Positions 1,079 to 52,345 of a DNA stretch of 64,000 nt are shown here, piece by piece. The first letter of the stretch is position 1. Each line of letters begins with the position of its first letter. The stretch lies in contig JBAQEZ010000003.1 in the NCBI GenBank assembly GCA_049287005.1, positions 95,493 to 159,492 on the forward strand, written 5' to 3'. The position numbers were made by a program, and so were the translations under genes. The notes under the pieces are model-generated. The model did no database searches, was not told the origin of the DNA, and saw only the letters and a program-made list of their open reading frames with translations. This stretch comes from Candidatus Moraniibacteriota bacterium (GTDB lineage: Bacteria; Patescibacteriota; Minisyncoccia; Moranbacterales; UBA1568).

Positions 1079-1083
1079 ATAGG

Positions 1084-5448: not shown

Positions 5449-5452
5449 GATG

Positions 5453-5960: not shown

Positions 5961-6105
5961 CAGAAATCCAAAAAGCATAAAGATATATAGCCAGTACGCC
6001 GAGGTGTCCTCTGGGGATGAAATATGGATTTGTAAGCTTGTCGTGTAATAACTCACAAACAAAAGGCTTCATTTGAAGCCAATTCATATGTTTGCTTAAT
6101 TATTT
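5961..6105 (+). repeat. long copy D of the island repeat family, in the divergent XRE / DUF4238-gene regulatory region
   Basis: See copy C. The hairpin here is GCTTCAttTGAAGC, versus GCTTTAaaTAAAGC in copies A and B: compensatory changes that preserve the palindrome. Confidence 0.65.
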
Positions 6106-6187
6106 TTCATTTGATTGCGGTCGGCGATTTTTTTGTGAATTGCGTATATACTGAAAGTGTTTCTTTTTCAGGCTTTCACCAAAAATT

Positions 6188-8659: not shown

Positions 8660-8749
8660 TTTGTAAAAATTCAGCTCTAACTGCATGATTATCCGTTCAA
8701 AAGAACTAATGGATTGTTAAAAAATATTAAACTGATATACACTTCATAA

Positions 8750-9463: not shown

Positions 9464-9679
9464 AGTTATTTATTTTCTAGTTGTTGCTCTTTTTATCTAA
9501 GTCACAACAGATAAGCACTTCAATAAGGAGTTGATTTAGTGATACTAGTCAGAAATTCAGTTCTAACCGTATTAACTACCCAGCTCAGATAAAAACAAGG
9601 CTCATCCGCCAGTCGGCAGAGAGCCTTATTTGTTATCCTCACAGTGGACGGTCAAACCGATGAATGTTATGGTAATGGT

Positions 9680-10291
9680 ATGAAAAATATCAAGGCGATC
9701 GTTTTTGATCTGAACGGGGTTTTTATCACGAGCCCCAAGTTGAGCCACAGATTTCATCAGGATTTCGGAGTTGATGAAGAGGCTTTTTTGCTCGCGCTGA
9801 AAGATGTCATGGCTCAAGTGCGGCAGCCTCATGCCGGCGGCGCCTATTCCTATTGGCAGCCTTATCTGGAACAGTGGGGCGTGCCATTCGATGAGGAATC
9901 ATTGCTTGATTATTGGTTTGCGGCGGAAAAGGAAAACCCTGCCATGATAAAGATCTCAGAAGCGTTGAAAGCGAAGGGCATTTCCCTATTCATTCTTTCC
10001 AATAATCTGAGAGAGCGATCCGGATATTACCAGGAGCGCTTTTCTTTTTTGGGCGCTCTCTTCCAGAAAATCTATTATTCATGGCAAACAGGATTCATCA
10101 AACCGGACAGACGGGCATACGAACTCATTTTGCGAGAAAATAATCTGCGGCCCGAAGAATGTATATACTTCGACGACTCGCAAACCAATATCGCCGTCGC
10201 TCAAGGCATCGGGATAGAGAGCTATCTCTTCCAGGGCAGCGACGATGTGCAAGAAAAACTGGCAGAACTTTTGACATGTCGGATCAGTTAA
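9680..10291 (+). CDS. HAD-superfamily hydrolase
   Basis: Motif I VFDLNGV (DxDx[TV]); ILSNN and FDDS motifs. The ORF frame opens at GTG 9644 and the first ATG is 9680. Confidence 0.7.
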   Translation: MKNIKAIVFDLNGVFITSPKLSHRFHQDFGVDEEAFLLALKDVMAQVRQPHAGGAYSYWQPYLEQWGVPFDEESLLDYWFAAEKENPAMIKISEALKAKGISLFILSNNLRERSGYYQERFSFLGALFQKIYYSWQTGFIKPDRRAYELILRENNLRPEECIYFDDSQTNIAVAQGIGIESYLFQGSDDVQEKLAELLTCRIS

Positions 10292-10397
10292 CCTCAGCAG
10301 CACCTCGTTTGGTATTAAAAAAAAGCCCACTGGATAGTGTTGCTACCAGTGGGATATCAGTTTATCCGTTCTTTCTGCCTTGCTTGTTAGCGATGAG

Positions 10398-39542: not shown

Positions 39543-39977
39543 ATGAGGCTGCGGAAAGTGTTCCTATCGATGCTTTTTGTAGCCTTTTTTCTTTGGCTGC
39601 ATTTTTGGCTACGCGCCTGGATGGTGGCGACACACGATGATACAACACTGTGCAACCCCGGTGGACCATTTGGGGTGATTTTCCCAGTGTGGCTGCTGAT
39701 CGCCTTCAGTTGCGGGATAGTGCTTCTTTTGTTGGGAGCGTGGCTGAAAGAAAAAGGCGTTGTCTTTGGTTGGCTATGGCTTCTCATCCTTTCCGGTGGC
39801 TTGGGAAACCTGTTGGAACGTATCCTTTTTGGTTGTATTATAGACTATGTAGCCCTGCCGTTTTTTCCGGTGTTCAATCTGGCAGATGTGTTACTGACCA
39901 TCGGGACGATAGGGATTTTGTGGGGCGCGCGTTCCAAGAAACAAGAGAAAGATTCACTGAATATTAGAAATGAGTAA
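39543..39977 (+). CDS. lspA: lipoprotein signal peptidase II
   Basis: The LspA motifs are all present: N.GG.FG (CNPGGPFG), GGLGNLLERI, IIDYV, FPVFNLADV. Confidence 0.8.
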   Translation: MRLRKVFLSMLFVAFFLWLHFWLRAWMVATHDDTTLCNPGGPFGVIFPVWLLIAFSCGIVLLLLGAWLKEKGVVFGWLWLLILSGGLGNLLERILFGCIIDYVALPFFPVFNLADVLLTIGTIGILWGARSKKQEKDSLNIRNE

Positions 39978-40671
39978 TGAGCTGTTTCTTCATAATACTA
40001 TGTCAGCGAAAATTTTTTCTGCGACAACCTTGGGGTTGGAAAGCGTTTCTGTAGAAGTGGAGGTGGATGTTCTGTCCGCAGGACTTCACGCTTTTACGCT
40101 GGTTGGATTGCCGGATACGGCTATCAAGGAATCGCGCGACCGTGTCAGCGCCGCGCTCAAAAATAGCGGTTTCAGGCCGCCGCATCAATGCGGTCGCGTG
40201 ACCGTCAATCTCGCTCCGGCCGATCTGCCGAAAAATACTCCCATCTATGATTTACCGATGGCGTTGGGATTTCTCTTGGCGACAGAACAACTCTCTTTCG
40301 ATCATCGAAAAAAACTATTCATCGGAGAACTGGCTTTGGATGGTAGCGTGCGCCGCGTGCAAGGCGTCTTGCCTATCGCTTTGTATGCGAAAGAAAAAGG
40401 GTTCCAAGAAATTTATGTTCCGGAGGATAACGCGTATGAAGCGGCGCTGGTCGAAGATATCGACGTGATTCCCGTGAAGCATCTTTTTGCTGTCGCGAAA
40501 CATCTGTGCGGGGAAAAATTGATAGAGCCGTACCGGCGAGAAGCGGTAGTCTTCTCTACGGAGGAATATGATGGACTGGATATGGCCTACGTACTGGGCC
40601 AAGAACACGCCAAGCGGGCGCTCGAAATCGCGGCGGCGGGAGGGCACAATACGCTAATATACGGTCTATAA
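39970..40671 (+). pseudogene. comM: comM/yifB (Mg-chelatase-like AAA+ competence protein) N-terminal fragment, truncated by island insertion
   Basis: Ends ...AKRALEIAAAGGHNTLIYGL*, exactly where ComM normally continues into the Walker A (GGHNxxxxGPPGSGKT). The continuation is found at 51467. Confidence 0.8.
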
Positions 40672-40727
40672 AGTTGACAAATAGGAAATAAGGTATATAG
40701 TGGCTATACATAAGTTAAAGCCATTAT

Positions 40728-42515
40728 ATGGAGAACGCCGTAGGCTACATAAGGGTATCTTCCGAAAAACAAGACTACGAGCGTCAAAGGGACGAGATTA
40801 TTCAGTATGCCGCTAAAAACAACTTTACAGTAGTTAAATTCTTTGAGGACAAGCACTCTGGAAGTGACTATGATGAGAGGAGAGGCTTTCAGGAGCTTCT
40901 TATTTTTTTAGACGAGAATTCTCATATCAAGATAGTTATCTTTGATGAGATCAGCCGTATGGGGCGGGATACTGCTATGCAGGTAACGACCTATAAGGCA
41001 CTCTCAAAGAAAGGCATTAGGATTTTCACAAGAGGCAAGGGTGAATTTGGGAGTAATAAAGAGGACAACCTCTTATTTACAGTTCTTTCAGCAATCGCTG
41101 ACTATGAGAAGCAGACAATCATAGATAGAACCTCGTCAGGACGTAGAAAAGTCGTCAGGGACGGGTTTACGCAGATAAGCAGGCGTCCTTATGGATATAA
41201 CCTCGTTTTGACCGTAAAACAGAATAGGCAAGTCATAAAAAGGCAATCAATTGAGGTAAACAAAGAGGAAGCAGAAGTCGTTAAAAGAATGTTTGAAATC
41301 GTGGCAAAAAATGGGACTTCCTTTGACGCATTAAAGTATTTGAGCAACAGCAAGGTAAAACCACCCAAAGGGAAGAAATGGGGTAAATCTACTGTCTTGC
41401 GGATTCTCCATAACACTACTTATTATGGCGAGTGGAGATTTGGGAAGTACGTGAAAAATCATAAAACAAGGTATTCATTAGCAAAAAGAAAAGAGGAAGA
41501 TTTAACCATTGTTAATGTCCCGGCTATTATTTCCAAAACTCTTTTTGATGTTGTTCAGGAGAAATTGTCTAAAAATAAAACTAGCTTTAATCCTAGAAAC
41601 AGTAAAAGCACCTTTCTTTTGCAGGGAATGCTTCGTTGTGCGTGCGGCAAGTTAATGCAGTGTTACACGGAAGCAAGGACAAAAGAGAGGATTTACCGCT
41701 GTCCTCAAAGGAATATAGCAGGGGTAAGTGAAAAAACCTGTCAGATCCATTCGTTTAAAGCTGATTTTATTGAACGAATCTTTTTGCAGGAGGTGAAAGA
41801 AAGGATTGGAGATAAAGAGTTTTTAAAGGAAGAAAAGCTGAAAAAGCTTACTACGTTAAAAGAGCCATTGAACCGTCTTGAAAAGGAGCTTGATTCTACG
41901 AAAGAATCGTATGAATCGGATATCATCAACCTGAAACAATACTATGAGAAGTCTGTTATTCTCCAATCTAGTGATCCTGATAAAGCGAGGATATTTGAGG
42001 GGCTGGCAGATAATCTTTTAGAAAAGACAAAAGGACACAAAGAAACAATAGGAAAGTTAGTAGAGGAAATAAAGAAACTCAAAGAAAAAAGCATTGATTA
42101 TTCTTCATTCAAAGACCTCAAAAAGGCACTTGCGTATATTACTCAAAAGGACATTGAAGAATATGACGAATCTGCGCTTGATAAGAAAATTAAGTTAGCG
42201 AGAACTTACTTGAAAGAGGTGGTAGTAAGATTTCTTAATGAAGAAACAGAAAAACTACGGAGGGGGGTATTGGAATTGAGAAGCAGGGGAGTTTATAAAA
42301 AGGGAAATGAGGGTTACCGGAAGTTATATTTTAGTGTTGTTAATAAGGAACATATGCTTCGCAGGAATGCGGCAATTGTTGTAGGATTTGAGGTAAGTTT
42401 TGTGAATAACTTCCAATTGTTTGTTAAGTTTCCTTATTTACACGATCAACCGGAGCTTTTACAAAACTATGCAAAAGAGGGACGGGGAGTATCTTTAATC
42501 CCCTCTCACTTCTAA
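40728..42515 (+). CDS. large serine recombinase (resolvase/invertase N-domain + recombinase domain + zinc ribbon + coiled coil)
   Basis: VGYIRVSSEKQDYERQRDEI (catalytic Ser); CACGKLMQCYTEARTKERIYRCPQ zinc ribbon; 595 aa. Confidence 0.85.
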   Translation: MENAVGYIRVSSEKQDYERQRDEIIQYAAKNNFTVVKFFEDKHSGSDYDERRGFQELLIFLDENSHIKIVIFDEISRMGRDTAMQVTTYKALSKKGIRIFTRGKGEFGSNKEDNLLFTVLSAIADYEKQTIIDRTSSGRRKVVRDGFTQISRRPYGYNLVLTVKQNRQVIKRQSIEVNKEEAEVVKRMFEIVAKNGTSFDALKYLSNSKVKPPKGKKWGKSTVLRILHNTTYYGEWRFGKYVKNHKTRYSLAKRKEEDLTIVNVPAIISKTLFDVVQEKLSKNKTSFNPRNSKSTFLLQGMLRCACGKLMQCYTEARTKERIYRCPQRNIAGVSEKTCQIHSFKADFIERIFLQEVKERIGDKEFLKEEKLKKLTTLKEPLNRLEKELDSTKESYESDIINLKQYYEKSVILQSSDPDKARIFEGLADNLLEKTKGHKETIGKLVEEIKKLKEKSIDYSSFKDLKKALAYITQKDIEEYDESALDKKIKLARTYLKEVVVRFLNEETEKLRRGVLELRSRGVYKKGNEGYRKLYFSVVNKEHMLRRNAAIVVGFEVSFVNNFQLFVKFPYLHDQPELLQNYAKEGRGVSLIPSHF

Positions 42516-42680
42516 TCATTCTTCTAACTTTTGGCTATGGAATCAGGTAATTTATAAGTATTATTGGGTGGTCAAAAAATGCAGATTGAGGCTTGATTAA
42601 AGGTAATTTATGTGGTAAAATAATTGTGTTGGAAATACCGCAGAATACCGCAGTCTTAAAAAGAGTAAGCACAAAATAAT

Positions 42681-43835
42681 ATGGCAAAAATAATCAAAGC
42701 AAAGATTGAAAATCTAAAATACCGAGCGGGTAACTCAATGAGGGAAAACGGGTTGACTGAATATAAACTTGGTAACTTTGATGTGAACGAAGCATCGGCA
42801 AGTGGTATAGTAGAGATTAATGGCAAAAACAAAATTGCATATTCAAAATGGGTTACGCCAAAACGAACAAGGTCATATCCATTTGCAAGGATTTATGACA
42901 CATATAGTTTTGGTGGTAAGAGAATAACCATAATACCAATTATTAAAGATGAAGGCGTTGGTGCTTCAAAAAATAAATCAAATAATGACAGAATAAACTT
43001 CATTACGTTGTCTTGGATGAACCTTACCAATATATTTGTAATACTCGCTTGGTATTCAGAAGCAGAAAGGAAAAGTGAATACCGCATTACTAACCAAAGG
43101 TTTGACAATGACTATATAAAAACGAAAATAAAGGAAATCAGTGAATACCAGTTTGATGCTCATCACTGGAACAATAATCATTTTATAAAAGATTTTCGTG
43201 CTGTGTATGAAAAAGCAGTTTCTTCATATGAGCATATAGCAAAAAAACTGTCCGTGAAGTTGCACCCATCATCAAGACACAAAGCTTTCTTGGAAAAAAT
43301 AATTGATAAGTCAAACCCCAAGATAATTAGTCTGAACGGTTTTGCCTTGGAAACTCTAGCTAAATCAAGGTTGGCGGCGGCGAGGGAAGTTATTGTAAAA
43401 CACAAAAACGAATACCTGTCTCTTGATAGCGAAAAACTCCTATTTGAAATAATAAACAACCTTGGTGGCAGTTATTTTTTGACTGCTGACGAAATCATTA
43501 TTGATGGAGATAAGAAAAACCTGACCATACAGGAAGCCAAAAACGCAACAACAGGGAAGTTACCAAAATCGGCAGATATAAAAGACGGTTTATTCAAAAT
43601 ACTTTTGTTTTCCCAAATAAAAACAATTCATTTGGATGGCATCAAATATGACTATACAGTTACTTTGAAGCTAACTGGTAACCTTTCTTCAACTTTGCTA
43701 CTTCCAAACAATAAAAAGAATATATCTGCCTTTATCAAAAAAGAAAAACTGTCCGGTCCTGATATGGGAGCTATTTTTATGCTGAACGAGGAAGCTACAG
43801 AAAATAACTATGAGGTTAAAATCACCAGTAATTAA
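42681..43835 (+). CDS. hypothetical protein; candidate PD-(D/E)xK restriction endonuclease partner of the Dam-class MTase
   Basis: Possible catalytic IIIDGD ... LTIQEAK (D...ExK) near the C-terminus; sits in the same orientation 2 genes upstream of the MTase. Weak. Confidence 0.35.
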   Translation: MAKIIKAKIENLKYRAGNSMRENGLTEYKLGNFDVNEASASGIVEINGKNKIAYSKWVTPKRTRSYPFARIYDTYSFGGKRITIIPIIKDEGVGASKNKSNNDRINFITLSWMNLTNIFVILAWYSEAERKSEYRITNQRFDNDYIKTKIKEISEYQFDAHHWNNNHFIKDFRAVYEKAVSSYEHIAKKLSVKLHPSSRHKAFLEKIIDKSNPKIISLNGFALETLAKSRLAAAREVIVKHKNEYLSLDSEKLLFEIINNLGGSYFLTADEIIIDGDKKNLTIQEAKNATTGKLPKSADIKDGLFKILLFSQIKTIHLDGIKYDYTVTLKLTGNLSSTLLLPNNKKNISAFIKKEKLSGPDMGAIFMLNEEATENNYEVKITSN

Positions 43836-43843
43836 AATCCCCT

Positions 43844-44395
43844 ATGAGATATTATTCTTCAAAAGAAACTATATCGCTGGATGATGAAATTATAAAAAAA
43901 GCAAAAGAGTTCGCAGACAAAGTAGTTGGGACTATTAATTACGGAGATAGCAATCAGTTTGATCTAATCAAAATTGCAAACGACCATTTTATTAGTAAAA
44001 TTGGCGAGGAGGCTGCTAAAAAAGTATTTGAAAGTTTGGGAAAAAACGTTCAGGGTCCCAATTACACTATTTATGAAAAAAAAGAAAAAAGTTGGGATGC
44101 TGACCTCCTGATAGATAGTAGCGTAGAGGTCGCCGTAAAAACACAAAAAAAATCAGCCGCTGATAGATTTGGCTTATCTTGGACTTTTCAGGCATCACCA
44201 GAGCGCAGGGATATAATTTTGGATAATAAGGACGCGTGGGTGGTTTTTGTTGAGTGTAATGATAAAGATGGTTCTTTTGATTGCACTGTTTATCCGCCCT
44301 ATCAAATAAAAGAATTAACATTCGGAGAACCAAAACTTGATTATTTGAAAGGAAAAAAGAAAGTTGTTTACGCAACCAATTTACCCATAATTTGA
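43844..44395 (+). CDS. hypothetical protein, translationally coupled to the MTase (ATGA overlap)
   Basis: 183 aa; stop overlaps the MTase start codon; possible D...EVAVK motif. Confidence 0.45.
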   Translation: MRYYSSKETISLDDEIIKKAKEFADKVVGTINYGDSNQFDLIKIANDHFISKIGEEAAKKVFESLGKNVQGPNYTIYEKKEKSWDADLLIDSSVEVAVKTQKKSAADRFGLSWTFQASPERRDIILDNKDAWVVFVECNDKDGSFDCTVYPPYQIKELTFGEPKLDYLKGKKKVVYATNLPII

Positions 44396-45261
44396 GAGAT
44401 ATGATAACAACACCTTTAAGATATCCGGGCGGAAAAGCTAAAGCAATAAAAAAAATACTGCCTCTTGTCCCAACATTTTCCGAGTTTAGAGAGCCATTTC
44501 TTGGCGGCGCTTCTGTTTTCCTGGCTTTGAAGCAGAAGTATCCAGATAAGAAATACTGGGTGAATGATTTAAACAATGACCTATATCATTTTTGGATAAA
44601 TCTAAAGAATAATTGTGAAAAACTTGTAAGAGGGGTTCAGAGGAAAAAGGATATAGAAAAAGATGGTAGGGTGTTACATAAAAATCTTGTTGAAAATAAT
44701 CCAAAATCAAGTATTGGGAAGGCAATTAGATTTTTTGTGCTGAACAGAATAACATTTTCTGGGACTATTGAAGCGGGTGGTTATTCCCAAGGTGCGTTTG
44801 AGGCTCGTTTTACACAATCCTCTATTCGTAGACTGAAGCCTGTTAGTTCAGTATTAAATGATACTGAAATTACAAACCTTGACTATGAGAAACTGATTAA
44901 CAAAAAAGGTAAGGACGTATTCATTTTTTTAGATCCCCCATATTTGTCTGCAACAAAGTCTCGTCTATATGGGAAGAAAGGTAATTTGCATACAAGCTTT
45001 GACCACAAAAGATTTGCGAGAGTTATGAAAAAAACGAAGCATAAATGGATGATTACTTATGATGATTGTCCAGAGGTTAGGGATTTGTTTGCATTTGCCA
45101 ACATTTTAAGTTGGGAGTTTCAGTATGGTATGAACAACTACAAGCAGGAAACTGCGGCGAAAGGGAAAGAGCTTATCATTACAAATTACACGCTCCCGGA
45201 GCCTGAAACGCTATTTTCAATGAATGAGGTTTCACTAAAAATTACAAAAGTTACAGCGTAA
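44392..45261 (+). CDS. Dam-class (D12, alpha-group) N6-adenine DNA methyltransferase
   Basis: Motif I region RYPGGKAKAI / FLGGASVF and motif IV DPPY (IFLDPPYLSATKS). Confidence 0.8.
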   Translation: MRDMITTPLRYPGGKAKAIKKILPLVPTFSEFREPFLGGASVFLALKQKYPDKKYWVNDLNNDLYHFWINLKNNCEKLVRGVQRKKDIEKDGRVLHKNLVENNPKSSIGKAIRFFVLNRITFSGTIEAGGYSQGAFEARFTQSSIRRLKPVSSVLNDTEITNLDYEKLINKKGKDVFIFLDPPYLSATKSRLYGKKGNLHTSFDHKRFARVMKKTKHKWMITYDDCPEVRDLFAFANILSWEFQYGMNNYKQETAAKGKELIITNYTLPEPETLFSMNEVSLKITKVTA

Positions 45262-45426
45262 TAATTTATGAAGGTAGTCAATGTCTTATGTGTATCAACT
45301 GAAGAATAAAAGGGGGCAGGCAATTCTTTGCCCGCCCAGATTGAGTGTGTAAAAAAACTGTTGTAAGAAAAAGTCTTTTATGCAAAGTCCCCGATAGCCT
45401 AGATAATGAATCTATTCAAAAAATAA

Positions 45427-45828
45427 ATGAATAATTCCAATCGGTCACAACTTTATGAAGAAGAGTTTGATTTTATCTTTAACAAAAAAGGATCTGGTGT
45501 AAGGCGCGCGACAGTAATTTCTGCATTTATAGAGTGGCAGATAATTTCACTGGCAAGCAATTTTTTAGAGGAAAGGAACGTCGTACACAAGCCAGAACCA
45601 TATCAAGAGTATAGCCAGTCTTTCTATGTTTTAAAGGTGAATAGTGTTCTTACCACGGAAGAATTAGAAAGGGTAAAAAAATTTCGTAAGGAAAGAAATA
45701 AATCTATTCACGGGATATTCAAAGGTATGACACGTCCTGAATGGGATAGACAGAATAAACTTGTGATAAATCTCGGTAAGCCAATCGTAAAGGAACTAGA
45801 TAAAAAGCTTTATTCTTCTAATATATAA
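45427..45828 (+). CDS. hypothetical protein
   Basis: 133-aa ORF in the island; no motifs recognised. Confidence 0.45.
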   Translation: MNNSNRSQLYEEEFDFIFNKKGSGVRRATVISAFIEWQIISLASNFLEERNVVHKPEPYQEYSQSFYVLKVNSVLTTEELERVKKFRKERNKSIHGIFKGMTRPEWDRQNKLVINLGKPIVKELDKKLYSSNI

Positions 45829-45837
45829 TCGTTAATT

Positions 45838-46098
45838 ATGACCGTCCACATAGGCTACCGCTTCTACCCATTGAAAGAGCTATTACAAGCACTCAAAAAA
45901 GATAGGCAAACTTTAATTTGTGATTTGCCTTTTGAGTTAAGAATTCGCCAATTTTTTGAAAGCGAATTTAGTATAACGGGGAAAGAAGAACGTCCTTTGT
46001 CTGATGAAGAAGTGGAAAAGTTGGTAGAGCATTACAAATCTTTCCAAAAAATCTTTGAAGAAAAAGGGTTATTGCCTGTCAAAAAGTTAAACTTGTAG
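45838..46098 (+). CDS. hypothetical protein
   Basis: 86-aa ORF 10 nt after the previous gene. Confidence 0.4.
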   Translation: MTVHIGYRFYPLKELLQALKKDRQTLICDLPFELRIRQFFESEFSITGKEERPLSDEEVEKLVEHYKSFQKIFEEKGLLPVKKLNL

Positions 46099-46205
46099 AT
46101 TCCCCCATTATGTATTTAAAAGTATTTTTCTATCTTGCTGAAAAGAATCTTTATGCAAAGGTCTGGAAGTAAGGTAGTCTAGATAATAAATCTGGATATG
46201 TTTTA

Positions 46206-47369
46206 ATGATGAAAACCATTTTTACTAGGGATAGGATCAGAAAGGCGATTACTAGGACAAAACCGTGGGCAACGCCGATTTTTGCTCAATTGTGTATTGG
46301 AAACCACGAAAGCCTAGTTGTATTACGAAGTCAAATAGAAAAATGGTTGAAAAATGTTCCCAAAGAGAAAAGAAAAGACCTTGCGAGCAGGTTGACGCAG
46401 TGGGACGATATGAATCACCTCTCTGCATTTTTTGAATTGATGTGGCATCAATTTTTTCTTGAAGAGAAATTTCGCGTCTGTAATGAACCAGTTCTAGACA
46501 ATGGGAAAAAGCCAGAGTTTCTTTTATATACAAAATATGGTGATTTTTTATTTGAAGTGATAACCTCATTTGATGAGAAAACTTTGTATAAGAAGAAAAA
46601 GATTACGGAGGAAATTTTAGGGAAAACGAGTGAAATCAGTCATCATTTTAGGATAAGCCTTTCGTTAGATAAGTGGTTTGGTCACGATTTCAAATCTTCA
46701 TTGTTTCTAAAATTTGTAGTGAACCAGTTAGATTTATTGTTGTTGGCTAGAAATCAAAATCAAGAAAAGTTTGAGCCGATAACATATCGTCAGAAAGACT
46801 ATGTAATTGAAATTGATATTTCTTCTTTCCAAGAGAAACGTGGGAAAATTTTGGCAGGCGTTTCATATCCCGGTTATTCAGGGACTCTTGGGTCAAAACA
46901 AATCAAATCTAGATTGCAGAAAAAAATTACAAATTATAAAAACGTGGTTGATCTCAAAAAACCATTAGTTGTCGCGGTCTGTAATGATAATAGCAATTCG
47001 TTTATTGGGAATTCTGTGGAATATGATTTATTCGGGAGACCAACTGTTCATTTTAGCATTGACGGCTCTGGAAAGTCTTATTGGGGAAGAGATAATAGCG
47101 GAATTTTTATGCAAAGAAATGCTGATAGATCACCAAGAAATACTAGATTGAGTGCGGTAATTCAGTGTGCAAGGAAGTGGGGGAAAACAAAAAAATATAA
47201 GAATGGGTCGTATATTTATGATATGGCTGTTTATCATAATCCATTTGCGGCATTTCCAATCAGTAAAAATGTCTTTTCCAAATTTGCTCAATATATCCCA
47301 CATCAAACGAAAACTGGTGGCGTAATGAAATGGCGAAATAAGAAAGAGAATAGATACATTGTGTTTTAG
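46206..47369 (+). CDS. hypothetical protein
   Basis: 387-aa ORF; no motifs recognised. Confidence 0.5.
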   Translation: MMKTIFTRDRIRKAITRTKPWATPIFAQLCIGNHESLVVLRSQIEKWLKNVPKEKRKDLASRLTQWDDMNHLSAFFELMWHQFFLEEKFRVCNEPVLDNGKKPEFLLYTKYGDFLFEVITSFDEKTLYKKKKITEEILGKTSEISHHFRISLSLDKWFGHDFKSSLFLKFVVNQLDLLLLARNQNQEKFEPITYRQKDYVIEIDISSFQEKRGKILAGVSYPGYSGTLGSKQIKSRLQKKITNYKNVVDLKKPLVVAVCNDNSNSFIGNSVEYDLFGRPTVHFSIDGSGKSYWGRDNSGIFMQRNADRSPRNTRLSAVIQCARKWGKTKKYKNGSYIYDMAVYHNPFAAFPISKNVFSKFAQYIPHQTKTGGVMKWRNKKENRYIVF

Positions 47370-47410
47370 TGGTTTCTATCTAGCTGAAAGTAGCTTTTTC
47401 ACTCTTTTTG

Positions 47411-47578
47411 TTAAGCCATTTGATCTATCTGCCCCAAATCCATTTCCAGATTGAGTAAGCACTGTTGCTCGGTCATATCCGGATACTTCGCTTGAAGCTT
47501 CTCCACCGCGTCCCAAATCATTTTTGGAGGGTAGGTGGCTAGTGTTGGGTATTCTTTTTTGTCTAGTTCTTTATTCAT
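47411..47578 (-). CDS. 55-aa hypothetical protein (below the ORF-track size cutoff)
   Basis: Manual translation MNKELDKKEYPTLATYPPKMIWDAVEKLQAKYPDMTEQQCLLNLEMDLGQIDQMA; last gene of a minus-strand operon. Confidence 0.3.
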   Translation of the reverse strand: MNKELDKKEYPTLATYPPKMIWDAVEKLQAKYPDMTEQQCLLNLEMDLGQIDQMA

Positions 47579-47597
47579 AGATATTATTGTGCTGTAT

Positions 47598-48017
47598 CTA
47601 GTGACGAAATCGGGGGGTTATGCACATAGTTTGGATTTCATAAAAGAGCTTTCCATTCGGAAAATAGTACAGATATTTTTCTTCAAAAGGATCCCGAAAG
47701 ATTTCCTTTTTTACTCCATCAACAAGTATCCCGTCAGATTTGGAACAGATAGCTACCCGACCGGTATCCACCAATTCCAAAAGACCATAAGTGTCCTGTG
47801 TATCTTCCGGGTAATTGCTTGGCTTTGTTCGTAAATCTGTTTTGTTATAAAACACGGTAGCTTCTGATAGGCTATCTTGGCTATCGTATTTCTCTTTGGG
47901 CGAAAGCCTGATGATAGTAGTGCTTGTGCTTTCGTTGGGAATTGGATCTCTATGTTTGTAGGATTCAATCCTCTTTATTTGCTCTTGAAGCAGAGATTCT
48001 TTTTTATTGTCTAACAT
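47598..48017 (-). CDS. hypothetical protein
   Basis: 139-aa ORF within a co-oriented four-gene cluster. Confidence 0.45.
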   Translation of the reverse strand: MLDNKKESLLQEQIKRIESYKHRDPIPNESTSTTIIRLSPKEKYDSQDSLSEATVFYNKTDLRTKPSNYPEDTQDTYGLLELVDTGRVAICSKSDGILVDGVKKEIFRDPFEEKYLYYFPNGKLFYEIQTMCITPRFRH

Positions 48018-48036
48018 AAAACGTTCAATCTAAAAC

Positions 48037-48582
48037 CTACTTTAATTTTTTCAATTGGTTATTCCTTTCATTTACACATTCAGTAATGTTGCTATTATAT
48101 TCTTCTGTATAGGCGGGCTTATAATCATTAGCAAGCTGTTCTTGAAATCTTTCTTTGCTTTTTGAAAGACAATCGTTATATTTATCTATGGCTTTTTCAG
48201 CTATAACGTTTTTCTGTTTTATTAAATCACACTCGCTCTCGCTGACTTTGAGGGTAGTGCCGTCAAAAGCCAGACAGGATACTATTTTTTCTTCTACTTT
48301 TATTGGAGCAACTTCTACGCTTTTTATGGCTGTCTGGGTTTGTTGGGTAGTGGCTTCCGATACTGGAATGTCTTTTTCTGCTTCTTTATTTGCTTCTTGA
48401 TTGGTTTCATTTTTTGCTTGCAATTCCTCTACTGATTTTTGTAAGGCTTCAACTTGTTGTTTAGTTTTTTCTTTTTCATTTTTGATTACAAAATAGCCAG
48501 ACGCAACCGTTGTTGTTACTGCTGACGTTATAACTACTGTGAGCAATAATGCCCGGTGTTGTTGAAGAAAATCTTTAATCAT
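48037..48582 (-). CDS. membrane-anchored coiled-coil protein, hypothetical
   Basis: N-terminal TM (ALLLTVVITSAVTTTVASGYFVI) followed by a K/E/Q-rich coiled coil; overlaps the upstream gene by 8 nt. Confidence 0.45.
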   Translation of the reverse strand: MIKDFLQQHRALLLTVVITSAVTTTVASGYFVIKNEKEKTKQQVEALQKSVEELQAKNETNQEANKEAEKDIPVSEATTQQTQTAIKSVEVAPIKVEEKIVSCLAFDGTTLKVSESECDLIKQKNVIAEKAIDKYNDCLSKSKERFQEQLANDYKPAYTEEYNSNITECVNERNNQLKKLK

Positions 48583-49069
48583 ATTTATTGTCAGACCAGC
48601 CGTTTTCTTTTTTTAACTGATGTAATTTTAATAACCAATTGAGTTTTGTGTAGAATGTAAGTAATGCCATTGCTAATCCACAAAAGAGAGCCAATCCTAC
48701 CAACCCAAGTATCAATTCACCCAGTAGCCCTATCCCTTTTGGTGTTAGATCGTAAAGTTGTGAAAAACCAAATAAAAAAATAATCACTAACGTAGTGGCT
48801 AGTATATTTGATACTATTTTCACGCCACCGGTCAGCTCGGTATTTTTTATATAGTGCATTGTACGTATAAAACATTTTATATCACGCAACTTTGAACTTA
48901 TTAATTTTCGTTGTTCTTTGGTGAGATCAGAAACTTTCTCAATTAATAGATTTCGTTGTAAAGCAAAATAATATTTCTCGGAACAATCACCACAAAGGGG
49001 TTCATTATCTTCTGTCCACTTATCAGGACAATCCATTATTTTTTTACACCAAACACAGCTTTCTTCCAT
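48575..49069 (-). CDS. zinc-ribbon (CxxC...CxxC) protein with two C-terminal TM helices, hypothetical
   Basis: CVWCKKIMDC...CGDCSEKYY, then two hydrophobic helices. Confidence 0.5.
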   Translation of the reverse strand: MEESCVWCKKIMDCPDKWTEDNEPLCGDCSEKYYFALQRNLLIEKVSDLTKEQRKLISSKLRDIKCFIRTMHYIKNTELTGGVKIVSNILATTLVIIFLFGFSQLYDLTPKGIGLLGELILGLVGLALFCGLAMALLTFYTKLNWLLKLHQLKKENGWSDNKYD

Positions 49070-49723
49070 AGATACTATAAATAAAAAAAGGCAACCCTAC
49101 TGGTTGCAACACCCAACTAGACGATTATGCCCAGCTGTTTGAAGTAGGATTGCCCTTTTCAGGCACAATCCCACCTGCATAAAGCAAGGGTTTTTAGTTG
49201 AGTGTTGCATACTTAAATTACCACGAAAAACGTCCAGAATCAAACGTAAAAATTTGACTTTTTTCCAATTTGCGTGTATACTGTATGCAGTTGTTTATCA
49301 ATTATTGTAAAGAGTTTGGAAATCTGTTTAGTGAAATGTTGATTTTTCCACTGCGCGGAGAGAACCTCCCCAGTAACTTGTTGGTTGATTGAAGCTAAAT
49401 AAGATCCCAGACGATTCCTTTTGAGGAACATTATTTTTATCATAGGTTATTGCATACACACAGAGGGCGGAAAAGAGGGTTGATATCCTCTCTGACGAAA
49501 ACTCATTCTCCATAAAAAGAGATATGTCAGTCCGATCATTGTAACTGTTGTAGGGCGTTCAGAATAAACGTTAAGTAAGGCTCAAAGAAATCATTATCAA
49601 ATTAGGCAGGTTAGTTTCTGCTCTCTTTGGTGGTTATTTCTTTGAGTTTTTTTGTTATAAGAAAGAGGGTAGGCGTAATTTGCCTGCCCTCTTTTATTTG
49701 TCTAATCCATTAAACACACAAGT

Positions 49724-49924
49724 ATGCGGTCAATAGAAGCAAGGTTCAAAAAAGTGCAGGTCAGGAATTTTATCAAGAGTTCTTATGATTGTTTTGCAGA
49801 GGCAATATCGGGGCAGAAGTTTAGCAGGGAAGTGATCCATCGCTGGTTTATGAAACTGGTCAATAAAGACGATTATGCTAAAAGAGAGAAAAAAGAGTTA
49901 TTGCTATATCTGGAAAGTTTATGA
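49724..49924 (+). CDS. small hypothetical protein
   Basis: 66 aa, downstream of a 650-bp divergent regulatory region. Confidence 0.3.
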   Translation: MRSIEARFKKVQVRNFIKSSYDCFAEAISGQKFSREVIHRWFMKLVNKDDYAKREKKELLLYLESL

Positions 49925-50567
49925 AACGTCCGAGGACGACAGAAAATGCGGGGGTAAAGGCGGTTTGGGAGAGGGGCAAAGGGTAAATGATACATATTTA
50001 CCAAGTACCACGAGAAACAATGCTTAAAACGAGTTTTGTAAAAATAAGAATCAAATATGAAAAAGAAATGGTTAAGGAATAGAAACTATTATAAGTATTC
50101 CTTTTCTAACAAACCTGTCCATTGAAAATGAGGGTCAAATAGCTCTTGCCGGTGGCGAATAATAAGCCCAAGGTAATAAGCTAACGCCGGTTTGTTCGTT
50201 CCGGTAAATTCAAAACGATAGTCCGTGCGTTATACAGGAACTGGGGCGCAAGGAATACACATTATGGAGAGTGAAATCTCCTACCCAATGCTTCTTGTTA
50301 ACAGTAGCAAGATAACCGTTCCGAAAAAGGAAGCTGGGCTGCGGTACGCTCTAAATTACCGCCCTTGTGTCGCTATCCATATGAACAATCGTGTGGATAG
50401 CGATGTAAGGATAATAGTTTCAAAATCGTTAGCGACCCCCTCATTTTCAGGTTCCGGATACATAGCCGATCAAATAACCCACTCAAAAAGACGGGAAACT
50501 ACAACCATATATCGCAATCTCTTATAACCATATTAAATAGCTAATAAGAATAATTATTTATAAGTAT

Positions 50568-51104
50568 ATGGACAAAAAAAAGAAAAAAAAGAGAGGTGTT
50601 TATCTAAAAAATATGAAACAGAAAGAGAAACTAGAAGAATATGACCCCAATAATGGCAAGGGACTGAAATTACAATGGCTCAATTTCATAAAAGAATATA
50701 TCAAAAACGGGGGAAACGCTACGGAAGCCTATATAACAGCATACCCAGAAGTTAATAGGGAATCGGCGAGGCGCAATGGGTCGCGCCTGTTGACACACGC
50801 AGACATTATAGGAGAAATCGGAAACCGTTATGACGTTCAGACGGCGACGGACGCTTGGGTTATTGCTACGGCTATGAAATACGCCAAAGCAGGGTTAGAG
50901 AACCCCAAAGTGGCACTAGCCGGAGTGAAAGCACTAGAAATGATCGCTAGGAGCAAGGGTATGCTAACGGACGTTCAAAAAGTGGAATTTACAGCAGAGA
51001 ATCCGGCAGTTTTCTTTGCTCCATATAGCAAGGAAGAAGCAGAAGAAATGGATAAAATGTTCCAGCCGAAAGACGGGAAACCCCCAATTCGGATAATTGA
51101 ATAG
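50568..51104 (+). CDS. phage terminase small subunit-like protein (P27/Terminase_2 family)
   Basis: GGNATEAYITAYPEVNRESARRNGSRLLTHADI is the characteristic TerS HTH; 178 aa. No terL, portal or capsid genes are nearby. Confidence 0.65.
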   Translation: MDKKKKKKRGVYLKNMKQKEKLEEYDPNNGKGLKLQWLNFIKEYIKNGGNATEAYITAYPEVNRESARRNGSRLLTHADIIGEIGNRYDVQTATDAWVIATAMKYAKAGLENPKVALAGVKALEMIARSKGMLTDVQKVEFTAENPAVFFAPYSKEEAEEMDKMFQPKDGKPPIRIIE

Positions 51105-51466
51105 ATTACTAGAAAAAAGCCTTTTTGGTGAAAACGTTATGGAAAGAACCCGGGAAAATCAGGATAGAGTTTCTACTCCACGGGTAGCTGGTTCTTCCTT
51201 TGGCTCTATTCCTTTAAGGAGTTTTGGGAGTATAATAGAGTATGACAGTCGGATAGGCTTAAAACAATTGAGCAGGGAGATCCCTAGTAACGCATTTATA
51301 TTCAATGTAGGGAGTACTTATGTTGTTGTCGTTTTATAGTGGCTTATGATATATCTCATTTATGGAACAGGGGGCTATTCAATTAACTTTCCTTAATCCA
51401 CTATCCTTTCTAATAAGGGGTTGGAGTTGGTTTATTAGAGAATTCCCAGAAAAGCGTGTTTCTGAC

Positions 51467-52345
51467 CACAATATGATTTTCATCGGACCGCCGGGATCGG
51501 GGAAAACGCTTTTGGCGAAAACATTGCCCACCATCCTGCCGAAGTTGGATTTGGCCGAGAGTCTGGAAATTACCAAAATATTTTCGATCGCCGGATGTTT
51601 ACCAAAAGATAAATCGTTGATCATGACACGACCGTTCCGTTCCCCTCACCATACAGCCAGTGCGGTCTCTCTCGTGGGTGGCGGTTCTTTTCCGAAACCG
51701 GGAGAAATCAGTCTGGCACACCGAGGAGTATTGTTTCTGGATGAGTTCGCGGAATTCTCGCGGACGGTTTTGGAGAATTTGCGTCAGCCGCTCGAAGACG
51801 GGGAAATCACCGTCTCCCGAGCTAGAGGGTCTTTGCATTTTCCGGCGCGTTTCATGTTGGTGGCGGCGATGAATCCGTGTCCGTGCGGGCACGCAGGAGA
51901 CCCGCAGCGTGCCTGTGCTTGCGCGCCGTATCAGGTGGTGCGTTATCGACAGAAAATTTCCGGACCGATCCTGGATCGTATCGATCTGCATATTGATGTG
52001 CCGCGAGTGAAATTCGAGAAGCTGGCAGAAAAAGAAACCGGTGCAGAAAAAAGCAACGTTATCCGGGCGCGAGTCGAAAGTGCACGGGCCATACAGAAAG
52101 AGCGCTTCGCGGAGAAAACGTGTCGAACCAACGCGGAAATGACGAGCCATATGGTGAAAGAATTCTGTGTGTTGAACGATGAGACGCGGGATATTTTGCG
52201 TAGTGCTGTATCGCAATTGAAGCTTTCTGCGCGCGCCTATATGCGGATTTTGAAAGTGGCTCGGACAATCGCGGATTTGGCACAGGTGCCGTCTATCGGG
52301 GTCTCGCATCTGGCCGAAGCGCTCCAGTATCGATTCAAAGAGTAA
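51467..52345 (+). pseudogene. comM: comM/yifB C-terminal fragment (AAA+ and Mg-chelatase C-terminal domains)
   Basis: HNMIFIGPPGSGKTLLAKTL... continues the interrupted N-fragment. Track ORF 51362..52345 starts inside island DNA. Confidence 0.8.

What the first reader, a model, noticed from the sequence alone, without database searches (positions are those of the whole stretch)
40660..51466. The island resembles a phage satellite (PICI-like): recombinase plus a lone terminase small subunit, no structural genes
The only recognisable virion-related gene is a TerS (50568..51104, GNATEAYITAYPEVNRESARRNGSRLLTHADI). There is no terL, portal, capsid or tail gene in ~11 kb.

The rest is a recombinase, an R-M-like module and unknown small operons, with long intergenic regulatory regions at 49070-49720. 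Size (~11 kb), terminal integrase and a terS near the opposite end match the architecture of phage-inducible chromosomal islands that hijack helper-phage packaging.

Such satellites have barely been described outside Firmicutes and Proteobacteria. Their accessory genes often form anti-phage hotspots.
Basis: inference. Interest (0 to 1): 0.6.

Follow-up and report, generated by a model that had tools for sequence, protein, structure and literature searches.

The report
Candidate phage satellite in a CPR bacterium
A 10.8-kb mobile island inserted in the competence gene comM of an ultra-small Moraniibacteriota (CPR) bacterium carries one phage packaging gene (terS), a serine integrase and a restriction-modification system but no virion genes. 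It belongs to a previously undescribed family of similar elements that look like minimalist phage satellites carrying anti-phage cargo.

Summary
A low-GC block of 10,822 bp (7-bp cores CACAATA at 40645 and 51467) splits comM. Joining the cores restores a full-length YifB/ComM.

The island encodes:
- a large serine recombinase;
- a type II R-M system;
- unknown genes;
- a validated pac-type TerS (Pfam Terminase_2 above cut-off, PHROG 51, profile hit to the solved SF6 TerS).

No TerL, portal, capsid or tail gene is present in the island or the 64-kb window.

About 15 related elements in metagenomes (TerS 60-85% identical) share a core: an m139-like protein, a leader with two tandem terminators, a p66-like protein and terS. 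Their integrases (serine or tyrosine) and defence-like cargo vary. None has structural genes.

More distant TerS homologues (32-46%) sit immediately before TerL, a portal-sized protein and a capsid-like protein in IMG/VR phage contigs.

TerS is under purifying selection (dN/dS 0.11). A sister island occupies the same comM site in a different host lineage.

It is not a PICI: three of the five PICI core components were not detected. The best reading is a new satellite-like family in Patescibacteria. Helper-dependent packaging is inferred, not shown.

The parts
40645..40651 (+). attL crossover core CACAATA inside comM (codon context GGHN|)
   Evidence: the same core sits at the same comM position at the right (attR) junction of the sister island L007; its left junction lies outside the contig
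39970..40671 (+). comM N-terminal half (host gene, interrupted). The last 7 codons plus the stop are island-derived.
   Evidence: Pfam ChlI 5e-41 and Mg_chelatase positions 1-29
40728..42515 (+). large serine recombinase (integrase), 595 aa, N-terminal motif GYIRVSSEKQ
   Evidence: Pfam Resolvase 4e-30, Recombinase 8.5e-22, Zn_ribbon_recom 3.8e-07; phrog_95 integrase 4.7e-78. The C-terminal 200 aa are 91% identical in L007.
42681..43835 (+). type II restriction endonuclease (cargo)
   Evidence: PADLOC REase_II PDLC03572 2.5e-58; no Pfam, NCBIfam or PDB sequence match
43844..44395 (+). 183-aa ORF inside the R-M module, function unknown
   Evidence: no significant family hit
44392..45261 (+). 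Dam-type (D12 class) N6-adenine DNA methyltransferase (cargo)
   Evidence: Pfam MethyltransfD12 4.9e-42; PADLOC MTase_II 3e-125; NCBIfam dam subfamily 111 bits, just under its 114.85 cut-off
45427..47369 (+). three cargo ORFs of unknown function (133, 86 and 387 aa)
   Evidence: Only p387 has weak partial hits: PD-T7-5 5.3e-06 and PD-T7-1 3.3e-04. It has 4 homologues in 5.8 billion proteins. Its AlphaFold model is unusable, pLDDT 45.7.
47411..49069 (-). minus-strand operon: m164 (Zn-ribbon plus TM helices, 48575..49069), m181 (TM plus coiled coil, 48037..48582), m139 (47598..48017, family core protein) and m55 (47411..47578)
   Evidence: ORFs. m139 is 73% identical in L007, with dN/dS 0.12. 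The m139 family has 13 representative clusters in 1.84 billion. Its AF2 model has pLDDT 81.8 with no significant fold match in PDB or BFVD. It is absent from IMG/VR.
49078..49107 (-). terminator-like hairpin plus U-run about 10 nt upstream of the m164 start codon
49254..49282 (+). near-consensus sigma70-like promoter TTGACT-17-TATACT facing the terS operon
   Evidence: the pattern occurs only 4 times in the 64-kb window. An equivalent promoter lies 226-320 nt upstream of the operon in 8 other family loci. A similar one (TTGACTTTTTT...TATACT, or TATAAT in L014) precedes terS in phage contigs L011-L014.
49385..49723 (+). conserved non-coding leader of the terS operon (83% identical to L020, more than terS itself)
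49579..49655 (+). leader hairpin 1 (70 nt, dG -29.5) plus U-run: first intrinsic-terminator-like element
49663..49701 (+). leader hairpin 2 (dG -22.6) plus U-run: second terminator-like element, 31 nt before the p66 ATG
49724..49924 (+). p66, a small conserved protein and first gene of the terS operon (family core, function unknown)
   Evidence: Homologues stand upstream of terS in L001, L008, L020, L022, L025, L034 and L036, with distant 96-98-aa versions in L004 and L032. No Pfam family. Absent from IMG/VR.
49925..50567 (+). 643-nt spacer between p66 and terS. It is strongly structured and includes a near-perfect 22-bp hairpin at 50363..50410. It holds a doubtful GTG ORF (50225..50527). It is a candidate pac/ori or RNA element.
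   Evidence: RNA fold z = -5.5; inverted repeat I20; no Rfam family; no homologue in fetched loci or phages
50568..51104 (+). terS, SF6/SPP1-type (Terminase_2) small terminase subunit, 178 aa
   Evidence: dN/dS 0.11 against L007
51097..51339 (+). p80, a small ORF found only in the two comM/serine-recombinase islands. It is a candidate recombination directionality factor (inference only).
   Evidence: 66% identical in L007; third-position excess of substitutions; dN/dS 0.21; no family hit
51362..51466 (+). island-derived ATG plus 35 codons fused in frame to the comM C-half. It also contains the P arm of attR.
51467..51473 (+). attR crossover core CACAATA

Best explanation
The block 40645..51473 is an intact, recently mobile integrative element of a Candidatus Moraniibacteriota (Patescibacteria/CPR) genome.

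Shown:
- It is inserted by a large serine recombinase at a 7-bp core inside comM, and precise excision would restore comM.
- Between the integrase and a conserved core it carries swappable cargo, here a type II R-M system plus three unknown genes.
- The core is a minus-strand operon with the m139 protein, then a strong promoter, then a conserved leader with two tandem intrinsic terminators, then p66 and terS.

Inferred:
- The element is a phage satellite. While it is quiescent, transcripts from the promoter stop at the two terminators.
- During infection by, or induction of, a helper phage of the lineage seen in IMG/VR contigs L011-L017 (terS, TerL of Terminase_3 type, a portal-sized protein, an SU10-like capsid protein), read-through switches on p66 and terS. 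A helper late antiterminator is the likeliest trigger.
- The island TerS keeps the phage-type oligomerisation core and the C-terminal FT(A/G)ENPA(V/I)F...RIxE tail. It binds a pac site on the island and recruits the helper TerL, so island DNA is packaged by the headful into helper capsids and delivered to new hosts. There the recombinase integrates it into comM.
- No replication or capsid-resizing gene was recognised. Replication may be helper- or host-dependent, and packaging may use multimers.
- The R-M cargo protects the host, and so the island, against other phages.
For: Insertion in comM:
- comM is split, and joining the cores reconstructs it exactly.

The terS gene is genuine and functional:
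- It passes Pfam, PHROG and PDB-profile tests.
- dN/dS is 0.11 against the sister island.

No virion genes:
- No other virion or packaging gene was found in the island, the window, or any of the related satellite-like loci.

Horizontal transfer:
- A sister island in another Moraniibacteriota MAG (L007) uses the same comM core.
- Its recombinase C-terminus is 91% identical, TerS 85% and m139 73%, while comM itself is 64% identical with saturated dS. That pattern indicates horizontal transfer.
- Its cargo is completely different.

A recurrent family:
- TerS homologues 60-85% identical always sit in the same module with m139-like and/or p66-like genes.
- The integrases are serine or tyrosine. The cargo is defence-like: PLD-SNF2 plus MmeI-type MTase; Dcm, Vsr, AIPR and Abi_C; DEAD helicase plus DUF4145.
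- These terS genes are never next to a TerL.

Phage relatives of terS:
- TerS 32-46% identical and collinear to the C-terminal residue lies directly upstream of TerL (Terminase_3, 1.4e-20) and portal-sized and capsid-like proteins in phage contigs.
- m139-like and p66-like proteins are absent from IMG/VR, so only the packaging gene is shared with phages.

The double-terminator leader:
- It is found by per-sequence folding in all 8 p66-bearing loci, although in L022 only the first hairpin passes the detection threshold. By eye it is also upstream of terS in L019, which has no p66.
- A covariance model finds it ending at the operon's first gene's ATG in 7 loci at E<0.01 (window, L020, L022, L025, L032, L019, L004).
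- 95% of cells form pairs, and 31 of 44 pairs carry compensatory changes. Shifted controls give about 50% and 6-10 pairs.
- Only 21-39 nt separate the second terminator from the ATG, which leaves no room for a promoter.
- Phage contigs L011-L014 show an analogous promoter plus hairpin/U-run before their terS.
Against: - There is no direct evidence of excision, replication or encapsidation. No contig of the family is circular. No close family member was found in IMG/VR.
- No replication initiator or primase, no AlpA/Stl/MerR-type regulator and no capsid-size or packaging-interference gene was detected in the window island. Some relatives do carry an HTH_36 protein plus an IstB/DnaC-like ATPase.
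- The nearest phage TerS is only 46% identical. No helper has been identified for this host, and the rest of the 767-kb genome could not be searched.
- The leader model does not detect a homologous leader in the phage contigs. Promoter-like hits as a class are at chance level in the simple scan.
- The covariation counts come from an alignment fitted to the model.
Confidence: 0.55

Rival explanations
1. Integrative defence island whose TerS-like protein does not mobilise the island. Instead it would act as a DNA-binding regulator, or as an anti-phage decoy that titrates or misdirects the TerL of infecting phages (packaging interference as defence). The island would spread by other means.
For: - The cargo is dominated by defence genes in every family member.
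- No replication module or capsid-remodelling gene is seen in the window island.
- No member was found in viral contig collections.
- The C-terminal TerL-docking-like tail is conserved with phage TerS, which a decoy would also need.
Against: - The island has demonstrably moved between host lineages, and CPR genomes offer few alternative transfer routes.
- No relaxase or conjugation gene was detected.
- terS is the one gene kept in all members whatever the integrase type and cargo, as expected for the transfer function.
- Interference and self-packaging are not exclusive in known satellites (established knowledge of SaPIs).
Confidence: 0.22
2. Ordinary prophage remnant: a decayed temperate phage that has kept its integrase and terS by chance, later colonised by an R-M system.
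For: An integrase plus a lone phage gene in a low-GC block is the usual signature of a cryptic prophage.
Against: - All ORFs are intact. terS, the recombinase and m139 evolve under purifying selection (dN/dS 0.11-0.135).
- The same minimal gene set and order recurs in about 15 independent elements with different integrases and cargo, and none of them retains any structural gene.
- The non-coding leader is more conserved than the coding sequence.
- The element-specific core proteins have no phage homologues.
Confidence: 0.08
3. TerS-like protein acts as the excisionase or recombination directionality factor of the integrase. Winged-helix/HTH small terminases and excisionases are structurally related.
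For: terS lies next to the att site or the integrase gene in many members. The Pfam match is confined to the N-terminal HTH part.
Against: - The same TerS (60-85% identical) accompanies unrelated integrases: two or more kinds of serine recombinase, and tyrosine recombinases. An RDF would be expected to co-vary with its integrase.
- The protein is collinear over its whole length, including the oligomerisation core and C-terminus, with TerS proteins that precede TerL and with solved SF6 TerS.
- p80, which co-occurs only with the comM-type recombinase, is a better RDF candidate.
Confidence: 0.05

Closest known systems
PICIs / SaPIs with their own terS (pac-type, e.g. SaPI1, SaPIbov1)
   Same: - A chromosomally integrated island of about 11 kb.
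- Integrase at one end and terS near the other, with no structural genes.
- Divergent regulatory region between a leftward and a rightward operon.
- The TerS is homologous to, but distinct from, phage TerS.
- Accessory or defence cargo.
   Different: - Large serine recombinase instead of a tyrosine integrase.
- Insertion inside an ORF (comM).
- No Stl/AlpA/MerR regulator, no Pri-Rep, no Ppi/Cpm/capsid-morphogenesis gene detected.
- Core proteins (m139, p66) unrelated to any PICI protein.
- Host is a CPR bacterium, whereas more than 99.9% of PICIs are in Proteobacteria or Firmicutes (PMC10085698).
PICMI (phage-inducible chromosomal minimalist islands of Vibrionaceae; PMC10803314)
   Same: - Minimal gene content.
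- No capsid-remodelling genes.
- Likely headful packaging of multimers.
- Protects the host from other phages.
   Different: PICMIs have int, alpA and a primase but no terS. This element has terS but no recognisable alpA or primase, and uses a different integrase class and host phylum.
SF6/SPP1 G1P-type small terminase (PDB 3zqp, 2cmp, 4zc3)
   Same: A profile of the family matches SF6 TerS over the HTH DNA-binding and oligomerisation regions (4e-11). This is the Terminase_2 family, whose characterised members are pac/headful packaging phages.
   Different: It is encoded without a TerL partner. It has a lysine-rich N-terminal extension and a distinctive C-terminal tail shared only with a set of uncultured phages.
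Lambda-type late-operon control (PR' promoter, short terminated leader, tR', Q antiterminator) preceding the terminase genes
   Same: A near-consensus promoter, a 230-470-nt leader ending in intrinsic terminators, then the terS operon with no room for another promoter.
   Different: - Two tandem terminators.
- No sequence similarity to known leaders and no Rfam family.
- The antiterminator is unidentified, and the function is inferred from layout only.
Serine-integrase prophages that interrupt competence or sporulation genes and restore them on excision (e.g. Listeria comK prophages, Bacillus SPbeta/skin; from my own knowledge)
   Same: A large serine recombinase, insertion inside a coding gene of the competence pathway, and precise reconstitution of the gene on excision.
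   Different: Those are full or clearly phage-derived prophages of 40-130 kb. This is a 10.8-kb element with one phage gene.
Defence hotspots in phage satellites (P4-like and PICI accessory regions; from my own knowledge, and PMC10085698)
   Same: A variable anti-phage cargo slot lies between conserved core genes. The window island has R-M. Relatives carry BREX-like PLD-SNF2/MmeI MTase, Dcm/Vsr/AIPR/Abi_C and other genes.
   Different: Different core genes and host clade. Only the R-M system here is a validated defence type.

Membership tests
PICI (core components of de Sousa et al. 2023, PMC10085698) | integrase at one end of the island | tested here: met
   Present, but it is a large serine recombinase (Resolvase+Recombinase+Zn_ribbon_recom), not the tyrosine type used by described PICIs.
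PICI (core components of de Sousa et al. 2023, PMC10085698) | regulation module homologous to alpA, merR or stl | tested here: not met
   No HTH, AlpA, MerR or Stl family hit in any island ORF (Pfam, PHROGs, NCBIfam).
PICI (core components of de Sousa et al. 2023, PMC10085698) | primase-replicase module | tested here: not met
   No primase, helicase or Rep hit in the island. Some relatives have HTH_36 plus an IstB-like ATPase.
PICI (core components of de Sousa et al. 2023, PMC10085698) | capsid-morphogenesis or packaging-interference gene (cpm/ppi/rpp-like) | tested here: not met
   No hit in PHROGs or Pfam. Unknown ORFs cannot be excluded.
PICI (core components of de Sousa et al. 2023, PMC10085698) | small terminase subunit | tested here: met
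   Terminase_2 37.9 bits (above the 26.1 cut-off); phrog_51 9e-17; PDB SF6 TerS 4e-11.
Phage satellite (general definition) | integrated element lacking virion structural genes (no tail, holin, portal, capsid or TerL) | tested here: met
Phage satellite (general definition) | induction, replication and encapsidation dependent on a helper phage | not testable with these tools
   Needs virome or junction-read data or experiments. Indirect only: phage TerS-TerL relatives.
Phage satellite (general definition) | evidence of horizontal mobility | tested here: met
   The sister island sits in the same comM core of a divergent host. Island genes have dN 0.05-0.16 (p80 0.20) against comM dN 0.32 with saturated dS.
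Large serine recombinase integrative element | three-domain LSR plus short att core, with reconstitution of the target | tested here: met
   Domains; 7-bp core and in-frame comM restoration.
Terminase_2 (SF6/SPP1-type) TerS | N-terminal HTH plus oligomerisation core, full-length collinearity with TerS genes that precede a TerL | tested here: met
Type II restriction-modification system | adjacent REase and cognate-type MTase | tested here: met
   PADLOC REase_II 2.5e-58 and MTase_II 3e-125; Pfam D12 MTase. Specificity not determined.
Prophage (intact or remnant) | presence, or decayed traces, of TerL, portal, capsid, tail or lysis genes | tested here: not met
   None in the island or window, and none in about 15 relatives.

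The most novel reading that the evidence does not exclude
The island would be the founding, fully delimited member of a Patescibacteria-wide family of minimalist phage satellites. Its core would be one orphan-fold protein (m139), one small protein (p66), a captured pac-type terS, and a conserved double-terminator leader. The leader would keep terS silent until a helper phage's late antitermination machinery reads through it. These would be the first satellites described for CPR bacteria. They would act as interchangeable carriers of defence systems in about 0.8-Mb genomes, and would insert into comM or next to 16S rRNA.
Probability: 0.4. Interest if true: 0.8.

Novelty: new variant of a known kind. 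Interest (0 to 1): 0.66.

Why it matters
Phage satellites are known almost only from Proteobacteria and Firmicutes. Virus-host biology of the Candidate Phyla Radiation is largely unexplored.

If this family is a satellite, three things follow:
- Satellite parasitism extends to ultra-small episymbiotic bacteria.
- It defines a very small core gene set: terS, two small orphan proteins and an RNA leader, with no recognisable replication genes.
- It gives a concrete marker (the terS clade plus the leader) for finding CPR phages, their helpers, and the defence systems they shuttle.

The insertion in comM, reversible through a serine recombinase, also links the element to control of recombination of incoming DNA. 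CPR bacteria are thought to depend on DNA uptake.

The promoter, double-terminator and terS layout is a directly testable hypothesis for how a satellite senses its helper's late phase.

Tried and rejected
- tblastn of TerS and blastn of the regulatory region against 50,697 GenBank phages: no match.
- Circularity test (terminal overlaps) on all fetched contigs: none. Contigs of about 11 kb are therefore not demonstrably free circular forms.
- AlphaFold of p387 with a 4-sequence alignment: pLDDT 45.7, not used.
- Word-indexed homology search for m139 and p387 returned only 2 and 4 proteins.
- RNAalifold on a MAFFT alignment of eight leaders gave no structure because the alignment was not structural. 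I replaced it with per-sequence folding and a covariance model.
- Rfam (gathering and permissive thresholds) found no known RNA family in the island's regulatory region. The L20-leader and STnc390 hits are far below their thresholds.
- No iteron-like tandem repeats that would mark an origin.
- PDB sequence search for the REase: nothing.
- Literature search for satellites in Patescibacteria or CPR found no description.
- I considered and rejected terS as an RDF and the prophage-remnant reading (see rivals).
- The idea that L019 (terS directly followed by a serine recombinase) shows the excised attP form was dropped. Its recombinase is not close to the window's and the junction sequences differ.

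Full report
**1. What is in the sequence**

The region is a compositional island. GC is 0.34-0.40 between about 41 and 51 kb, against about 0.50 on both sides.

It interrupts a comM/yifB gene:
- The ORF 39970..40671 carries the ChlI domain and the first 29 positions of the Mg_chelatase profile.
- The ORF 51362..52345 carries profile positions 22-206 plus Mg_chelatase_C.

The two junctions share a 7-bp core, CACAATA, at 40645..40651 and 51467..51473. Joining them gives an uninterrupted 517-aa protein with the Walker A context GGHNMIFIGPPGSGKT. It matches TIGR00368 (YifB family) from position 1 to 499 of 499 at 604 bits.

The element is therefore 10,822 bp and sharply delimited, and its excision would restore comM. 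The genes outside it are housekeeping: UPF0102, a DksA/TraR zinc-finger protein and LspA on the left, and a G5-DPBB protein on the right. There is no tRNA in or next to it.

**2. Gene content**

From left to right:
- A 595-aa large serine recombinase: Resolvase, Recombinase and Zn_ribbon_recom domains; phrog_95 integrase 4.7e-78.
- A type II R-M module: REase with PADLOC 2.5e-58, an unknown 183-aa ORF, and a D12/Dam-type MTase with PADLOC 3e-125.
- Three unknown ORFs of 133, 86 and 387 aa. The last has only partial PD-T7-5/PD-T7-1 hits.
- A four-gene minus-strand operon, 47411..49069: a Zn-ribbon/TM protein, a TM/coiled-coil protein, m139 and a 55-aa ORF.
- A 654-nt intergenic region.
- p66 (49724..49924).
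- A 643-nt spacer.
- terS (50568..51104).
- A small ORF, p80.

terS passes every test I could apply:
- Pfam Terminase_2 is above its gathering score (37.9 against 26.1 bits), although only on the HTH part.
- PHROG 51 scores 9e-17 over aa 4-140.
- A profile of the family matches the solved small terminase of phage SF6 (3zqp, 4e-11) across the DNA-binding and oligomerisation regions, plus three other solved TerS entries.

Nothing else in the island matches a phage structural, packaging or lysis family. tblastn with TerL and portal-, scaffold- and capsid-position proteins from related phage contigs finds nothing in the whole 64-kb window.

**3. Host**

The identical TerS protein is on record as 'MAG: terminase small subunit [Candidatus Moraniibacteriota bacterium]' on a 766,823-bp contig. 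Moraniibacteriota belongs to the Parcubacteria/Patescibacteria group, i.e. the CPR.

**4. It is one of a family, and it moves**

TerS has 28 homologues at 60-85% identity among 5.8 billion proteins. I fetched their contexts.

The closest relative, L007, is from another Moraniibacteriota MAG. It is inserted at the same core at the same comM codon (HN|M).

| Gene, window vs L007 | Amino-acid identity |
|---|---|
| Recombinase C-terminus | 91% |
| TerS | 85% |
| m139 | 73% |
| p80 | 66% |
| comM (host) | 64% |

dS for comM is saturated and its dN is 0.32. Island genes have dN 0.05-0.16 (p80 0.20). That pattern indicates transfer of the island between already diverged hosts.

The cargo between the recombinase and the core is entirely different in L007: two MTase-like proteins and a 915-aa helicase/Res-like protein.

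dN/dS values show these are functional genes rather than debris:

| Gene | dN/dS |
|---|---|
| terS | 0.11 |
| recombinase | 0.135 |
| m139 | 0.12 |
| p80 | 0.21 |

**5. Family architecture**

Across about 15 independent elements the following recur:
- a minus-strand operon of small, often membrane-anchored proteins containing an m139-type domain (clusters C4/C10);
- a non-coding leader;
- a p66-type small protein (clusters C2/C7);
- terS.

Other features vary:
- Integrase: the comM-type serine recombinase, other serine recombinases (L019, L023), or one or two tyrosine integrases.
- Cargo, mostly defence-like: PLD-SNF2 helicase plus MmeI-type MTase; Dcm, Vsr, AIPR and Abi_C; DEAD helicase plus DUF4145.
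- A replication-type pair in some members: an HTH_36 protein and an IstB/DnaC-like ATPase (L020/L021) or the HTH_36 protein alone (L036; the adjacent ATPase was not checked there), after terS. The window island lacks this pair.

None has a TerL, a portal-sized protein or a capsid-like protein.

m139-type proteins are rare, with 13 representative clusters among 1.84 billion. A confident AlphaFold model (pLDDT 81.8) has no significant match in PDB or BFVD. Neither m139-type nor p66-type proteins are found in IMG/VR.

**6. Phage relatives of terS**

In IMG/VR, TerS proteins 32-46% identical to the island's lie immediately upstream of:
- a TerL (Pfam Terminase_3 1.4e-20);
- a 700-aa portal-sized protein;
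- a scaffold-like protein;
- an SU10-like capsid protein.

These phage TerS are collinear with the island TerS to the last residue. They share the tail FT(A/G)ENPA(V/I)F…RIxE-COOH. By analogy with other TerS proteins this is the region expected to contact TerL; that point is inference.

There is thus a clean split. TerS of at least 60% identity is never followed by TerL. TerS of 46% identity or less is always followed by TerL. This is what one expects if a satellite lineage captured a helper-type terS once and kept it.

One satellite-like contig (L022, IMG 3300013122) has an IMG number close to those of four of the phage contigs (3300013126-137). That suggests the same sampling project, but I could not verify it.

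**7. The regulatory region**

The stretch 49385..49742, which was labelled intergenic, is 83% identical to L020. That exceeds the identity of terS itself between the same loci, 74.6%.

Folding each family member separately gave the following:
- In all 8 p66-bearing loci a long hairpin with a U-run lies 63-104 nt from the ATG of the first operon gene. In the window it is 49579..49648, dG -29.5.
- A second GC-rich hairpin with a U-run lies 21-39 nt from that ATG. In the window it is 49663..49693, dG -22.6. In L022 only the first hairpin passes the detection threshold.
- L004 and L032 also have two hairpin plus U-run elements. By eye, so does L019, where the leader directly precedes terS.

A covariance model built from the window and L020 gave these results:
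- Besides the two loci it was built from, it recovers the leader, ending at the operon's first gene's ATG, in L022, L025, L032, L019 and L004 (E 2e-4 to 8e-3), and more weakly in L036, L008 and L034.
- On those ten rows, 95% of cells are canonical pairs, and 31 of 44 pairs carry compensatory changes.
- Shifted pairings give about 50% and 6-10 pairs.
- Caveat: the alignment is fitted to the model.

A near-consensus promoter (TTGACx-N16-18-TAxAxT) has these properties:
- It occurs only 4 times in the 64-kb window.
- It lies 226-320 nt upstream of the operon in eight other loci.
- In the window it is at 49254..49282, 470 nt upstream.

There is no room for a promoter after the second terminator. 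The p66-terS operon must therefore be transcribed through two intrinsic terminators, which points to control by antitermination.

The phage contigs L011-L014 show the same logic before their terS: a TTGACTTTTTT…TATACT promoter (TATAAT in L014), then a hairpin plus U-run 4-37 nt before the ATG in L011, L012 and L014; the 201-nt distance for L013 was measured from a mis-set start. Their leaders are not detectably homologous to the island's.

A terminator-like hairpin also sits about 10 nt before the first gene of the minus operon.

The 643-nt p66-terS spacer is unusually structured (z = -5.5) and contains a 22-bp hairpin. It has no Rfam family and no homologue elsewhere. It is a candidate pac or ori element, but that is a guess.

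**8. Most likely mechanism**

Shown:
- a serine-recombinase integrative element in comM;
- intact genes under selection;
- horizontal spread;
- a swappable defence cargo;
- a genuine pac-type terS of phage ancestry without any partner gene;
- a conserved terminator-gated leader.

Inferred (confidence about 0.55):
- A helper phage of the L011-L017 lineage relieves termination.
- TerS is then made, binds an island pac site and recruits the helper TerL.
- The island, possibly as multimers, is packaged by the headful and transduced, then integrates into comM.
- p80 is present only with the comM-type recombinase and may be its directionality factor. This is a weak inference.

Rivals are a TerS decoy or regulator in a non-packaged defence island (0.22), a prophage remnant (0.08) and TerS as an RDF (0.05). 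The remaining 0.10 is unassigned.

**9. Comparison with known systems**

It works like a pac-type PICI/SaPI that carries its own terS, and like PICMIs in its minimalism.

It is not a PICI by the published core set. Integrase and terS are present. The regulator (alpA/merR/stl), primase-replicase and capsid-morphogenesis components were tested and not detected, and the integrase class differs (PMC10085698).

PICMIs have alpA and a primase but no terS (PMC10803314).

More than 99.9% of predicted PICIs are in Proteobacteria or Firmicutes. Full-text searches found no description of satellites in Patescibacteria or CPR.

I therefore rate it a new variant of a known kind: a candidate new satellite family. 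It is not categorically new.

**10. Verdict**

The finding is well anchored, extends a known phenomenon to an unexplored clade, and brings a testable regulatory hypothesis. The defining property, helper-dependent encapsidation, remains unproven.

Noticed in passing
window 1..10300 (esp. 1084..1698, 1829..2716, 2850..3020, 3000..3410, 4900..5833, 6188..8659): There is a second low-GC block (GC 0.33-0.41). It encodes a CHC2 DnaG-type zinc-finger protein, an HTH_3 plus ImmA/IrrE (Peptidase_M78) pair and a DUF4238/SEC-C protein. It shares DNA with the island family: a 136-aa ORF is homologous to L007 6666..7088, and a non-coding stretch of about 140 nt is shared with L007, L019 and L025. It may be a second, related mobile element that runs off the window's left end.
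   Followed up: partly
window 2850..3020 (minus strand); L007 8495..8660; L019 4800..4960; L025 1690..1850: A conserved non-coding element of about 130 nt lies between the minus operon and the leader. It has a predicted three-helix structure, and 4 of 24 pairs show compensatory changes among 4 sequences. No Rfam family matches it. The island itself has a positionally equivalent but different sequence at 49085..49200, which is conserved with L022.
   Followed up: partly
window 51362..51466 (and L007 12031..12135): The right end of the island provides an ATG and 35 codons in frame with the comM C-terminal (AAA+) half. The peptide is similar in the sister island (…QL.fL.PL..F..G..WFI..F…). The island may allow expression of an N-terminally replaced ComM ATPase fragment, or the similarity may simply reflect the attP arm.
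   Followed up: no
L001 1706..3261 and L020 1005..2625: In the tyrosine-integrase relatives, a complete 16S rRNA gene lies about 240-260 nt upstream of the left integrase. Those elements therefore sit directly downstream of 16S rRNA in their hosts. L008 and L023 have a tRNA-Asn at the far end of the cargo.
   Followed up: no
L001, L004, L020, L032, L034: Two tyrosine integrase genes bracket the core module (IntA - minus operon - leader - p66 - terS - IntB - cargo). This could mean two tandem elements, a 3-4-kb terS mini-element plus a defence island, or one element with two recombinases.
   Followed up: no
window 49925..50567: The 643-nt spacer between p66 and terS has higher GC than the rest of the island, a fold z-score of -5.5 and a near-perfect 22-bp hairpin (50363..50410). 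It is unique to this island among the loci fetched. The GTG ORF 50225..50527 inside it has no homologue.
   Followed up: partly
window 53645..60289: A 2,214-aa ORF lies about 2.2 kb downstream of the island; comM-C and the G5-DPBB gene intervene. It contains many 'FDSSTNSIWV'-type repeats, which look like beta-propeller repeats, and Fn3-like repeats, in a GC-rich (0.56) stretch with negative GC skew. It is probably a giant surface protein.
   Followed up: no
L008 (CAZAJN010000029.1): A family member (TerS 60% identical, with p66, a tyrosine integrase and tRNA-Asn) sits on a contig binned as 'uncultured Bdellovibrionales'. Either the host range extends beyond CPR or the contig is mis-binned.
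   Followed up: no
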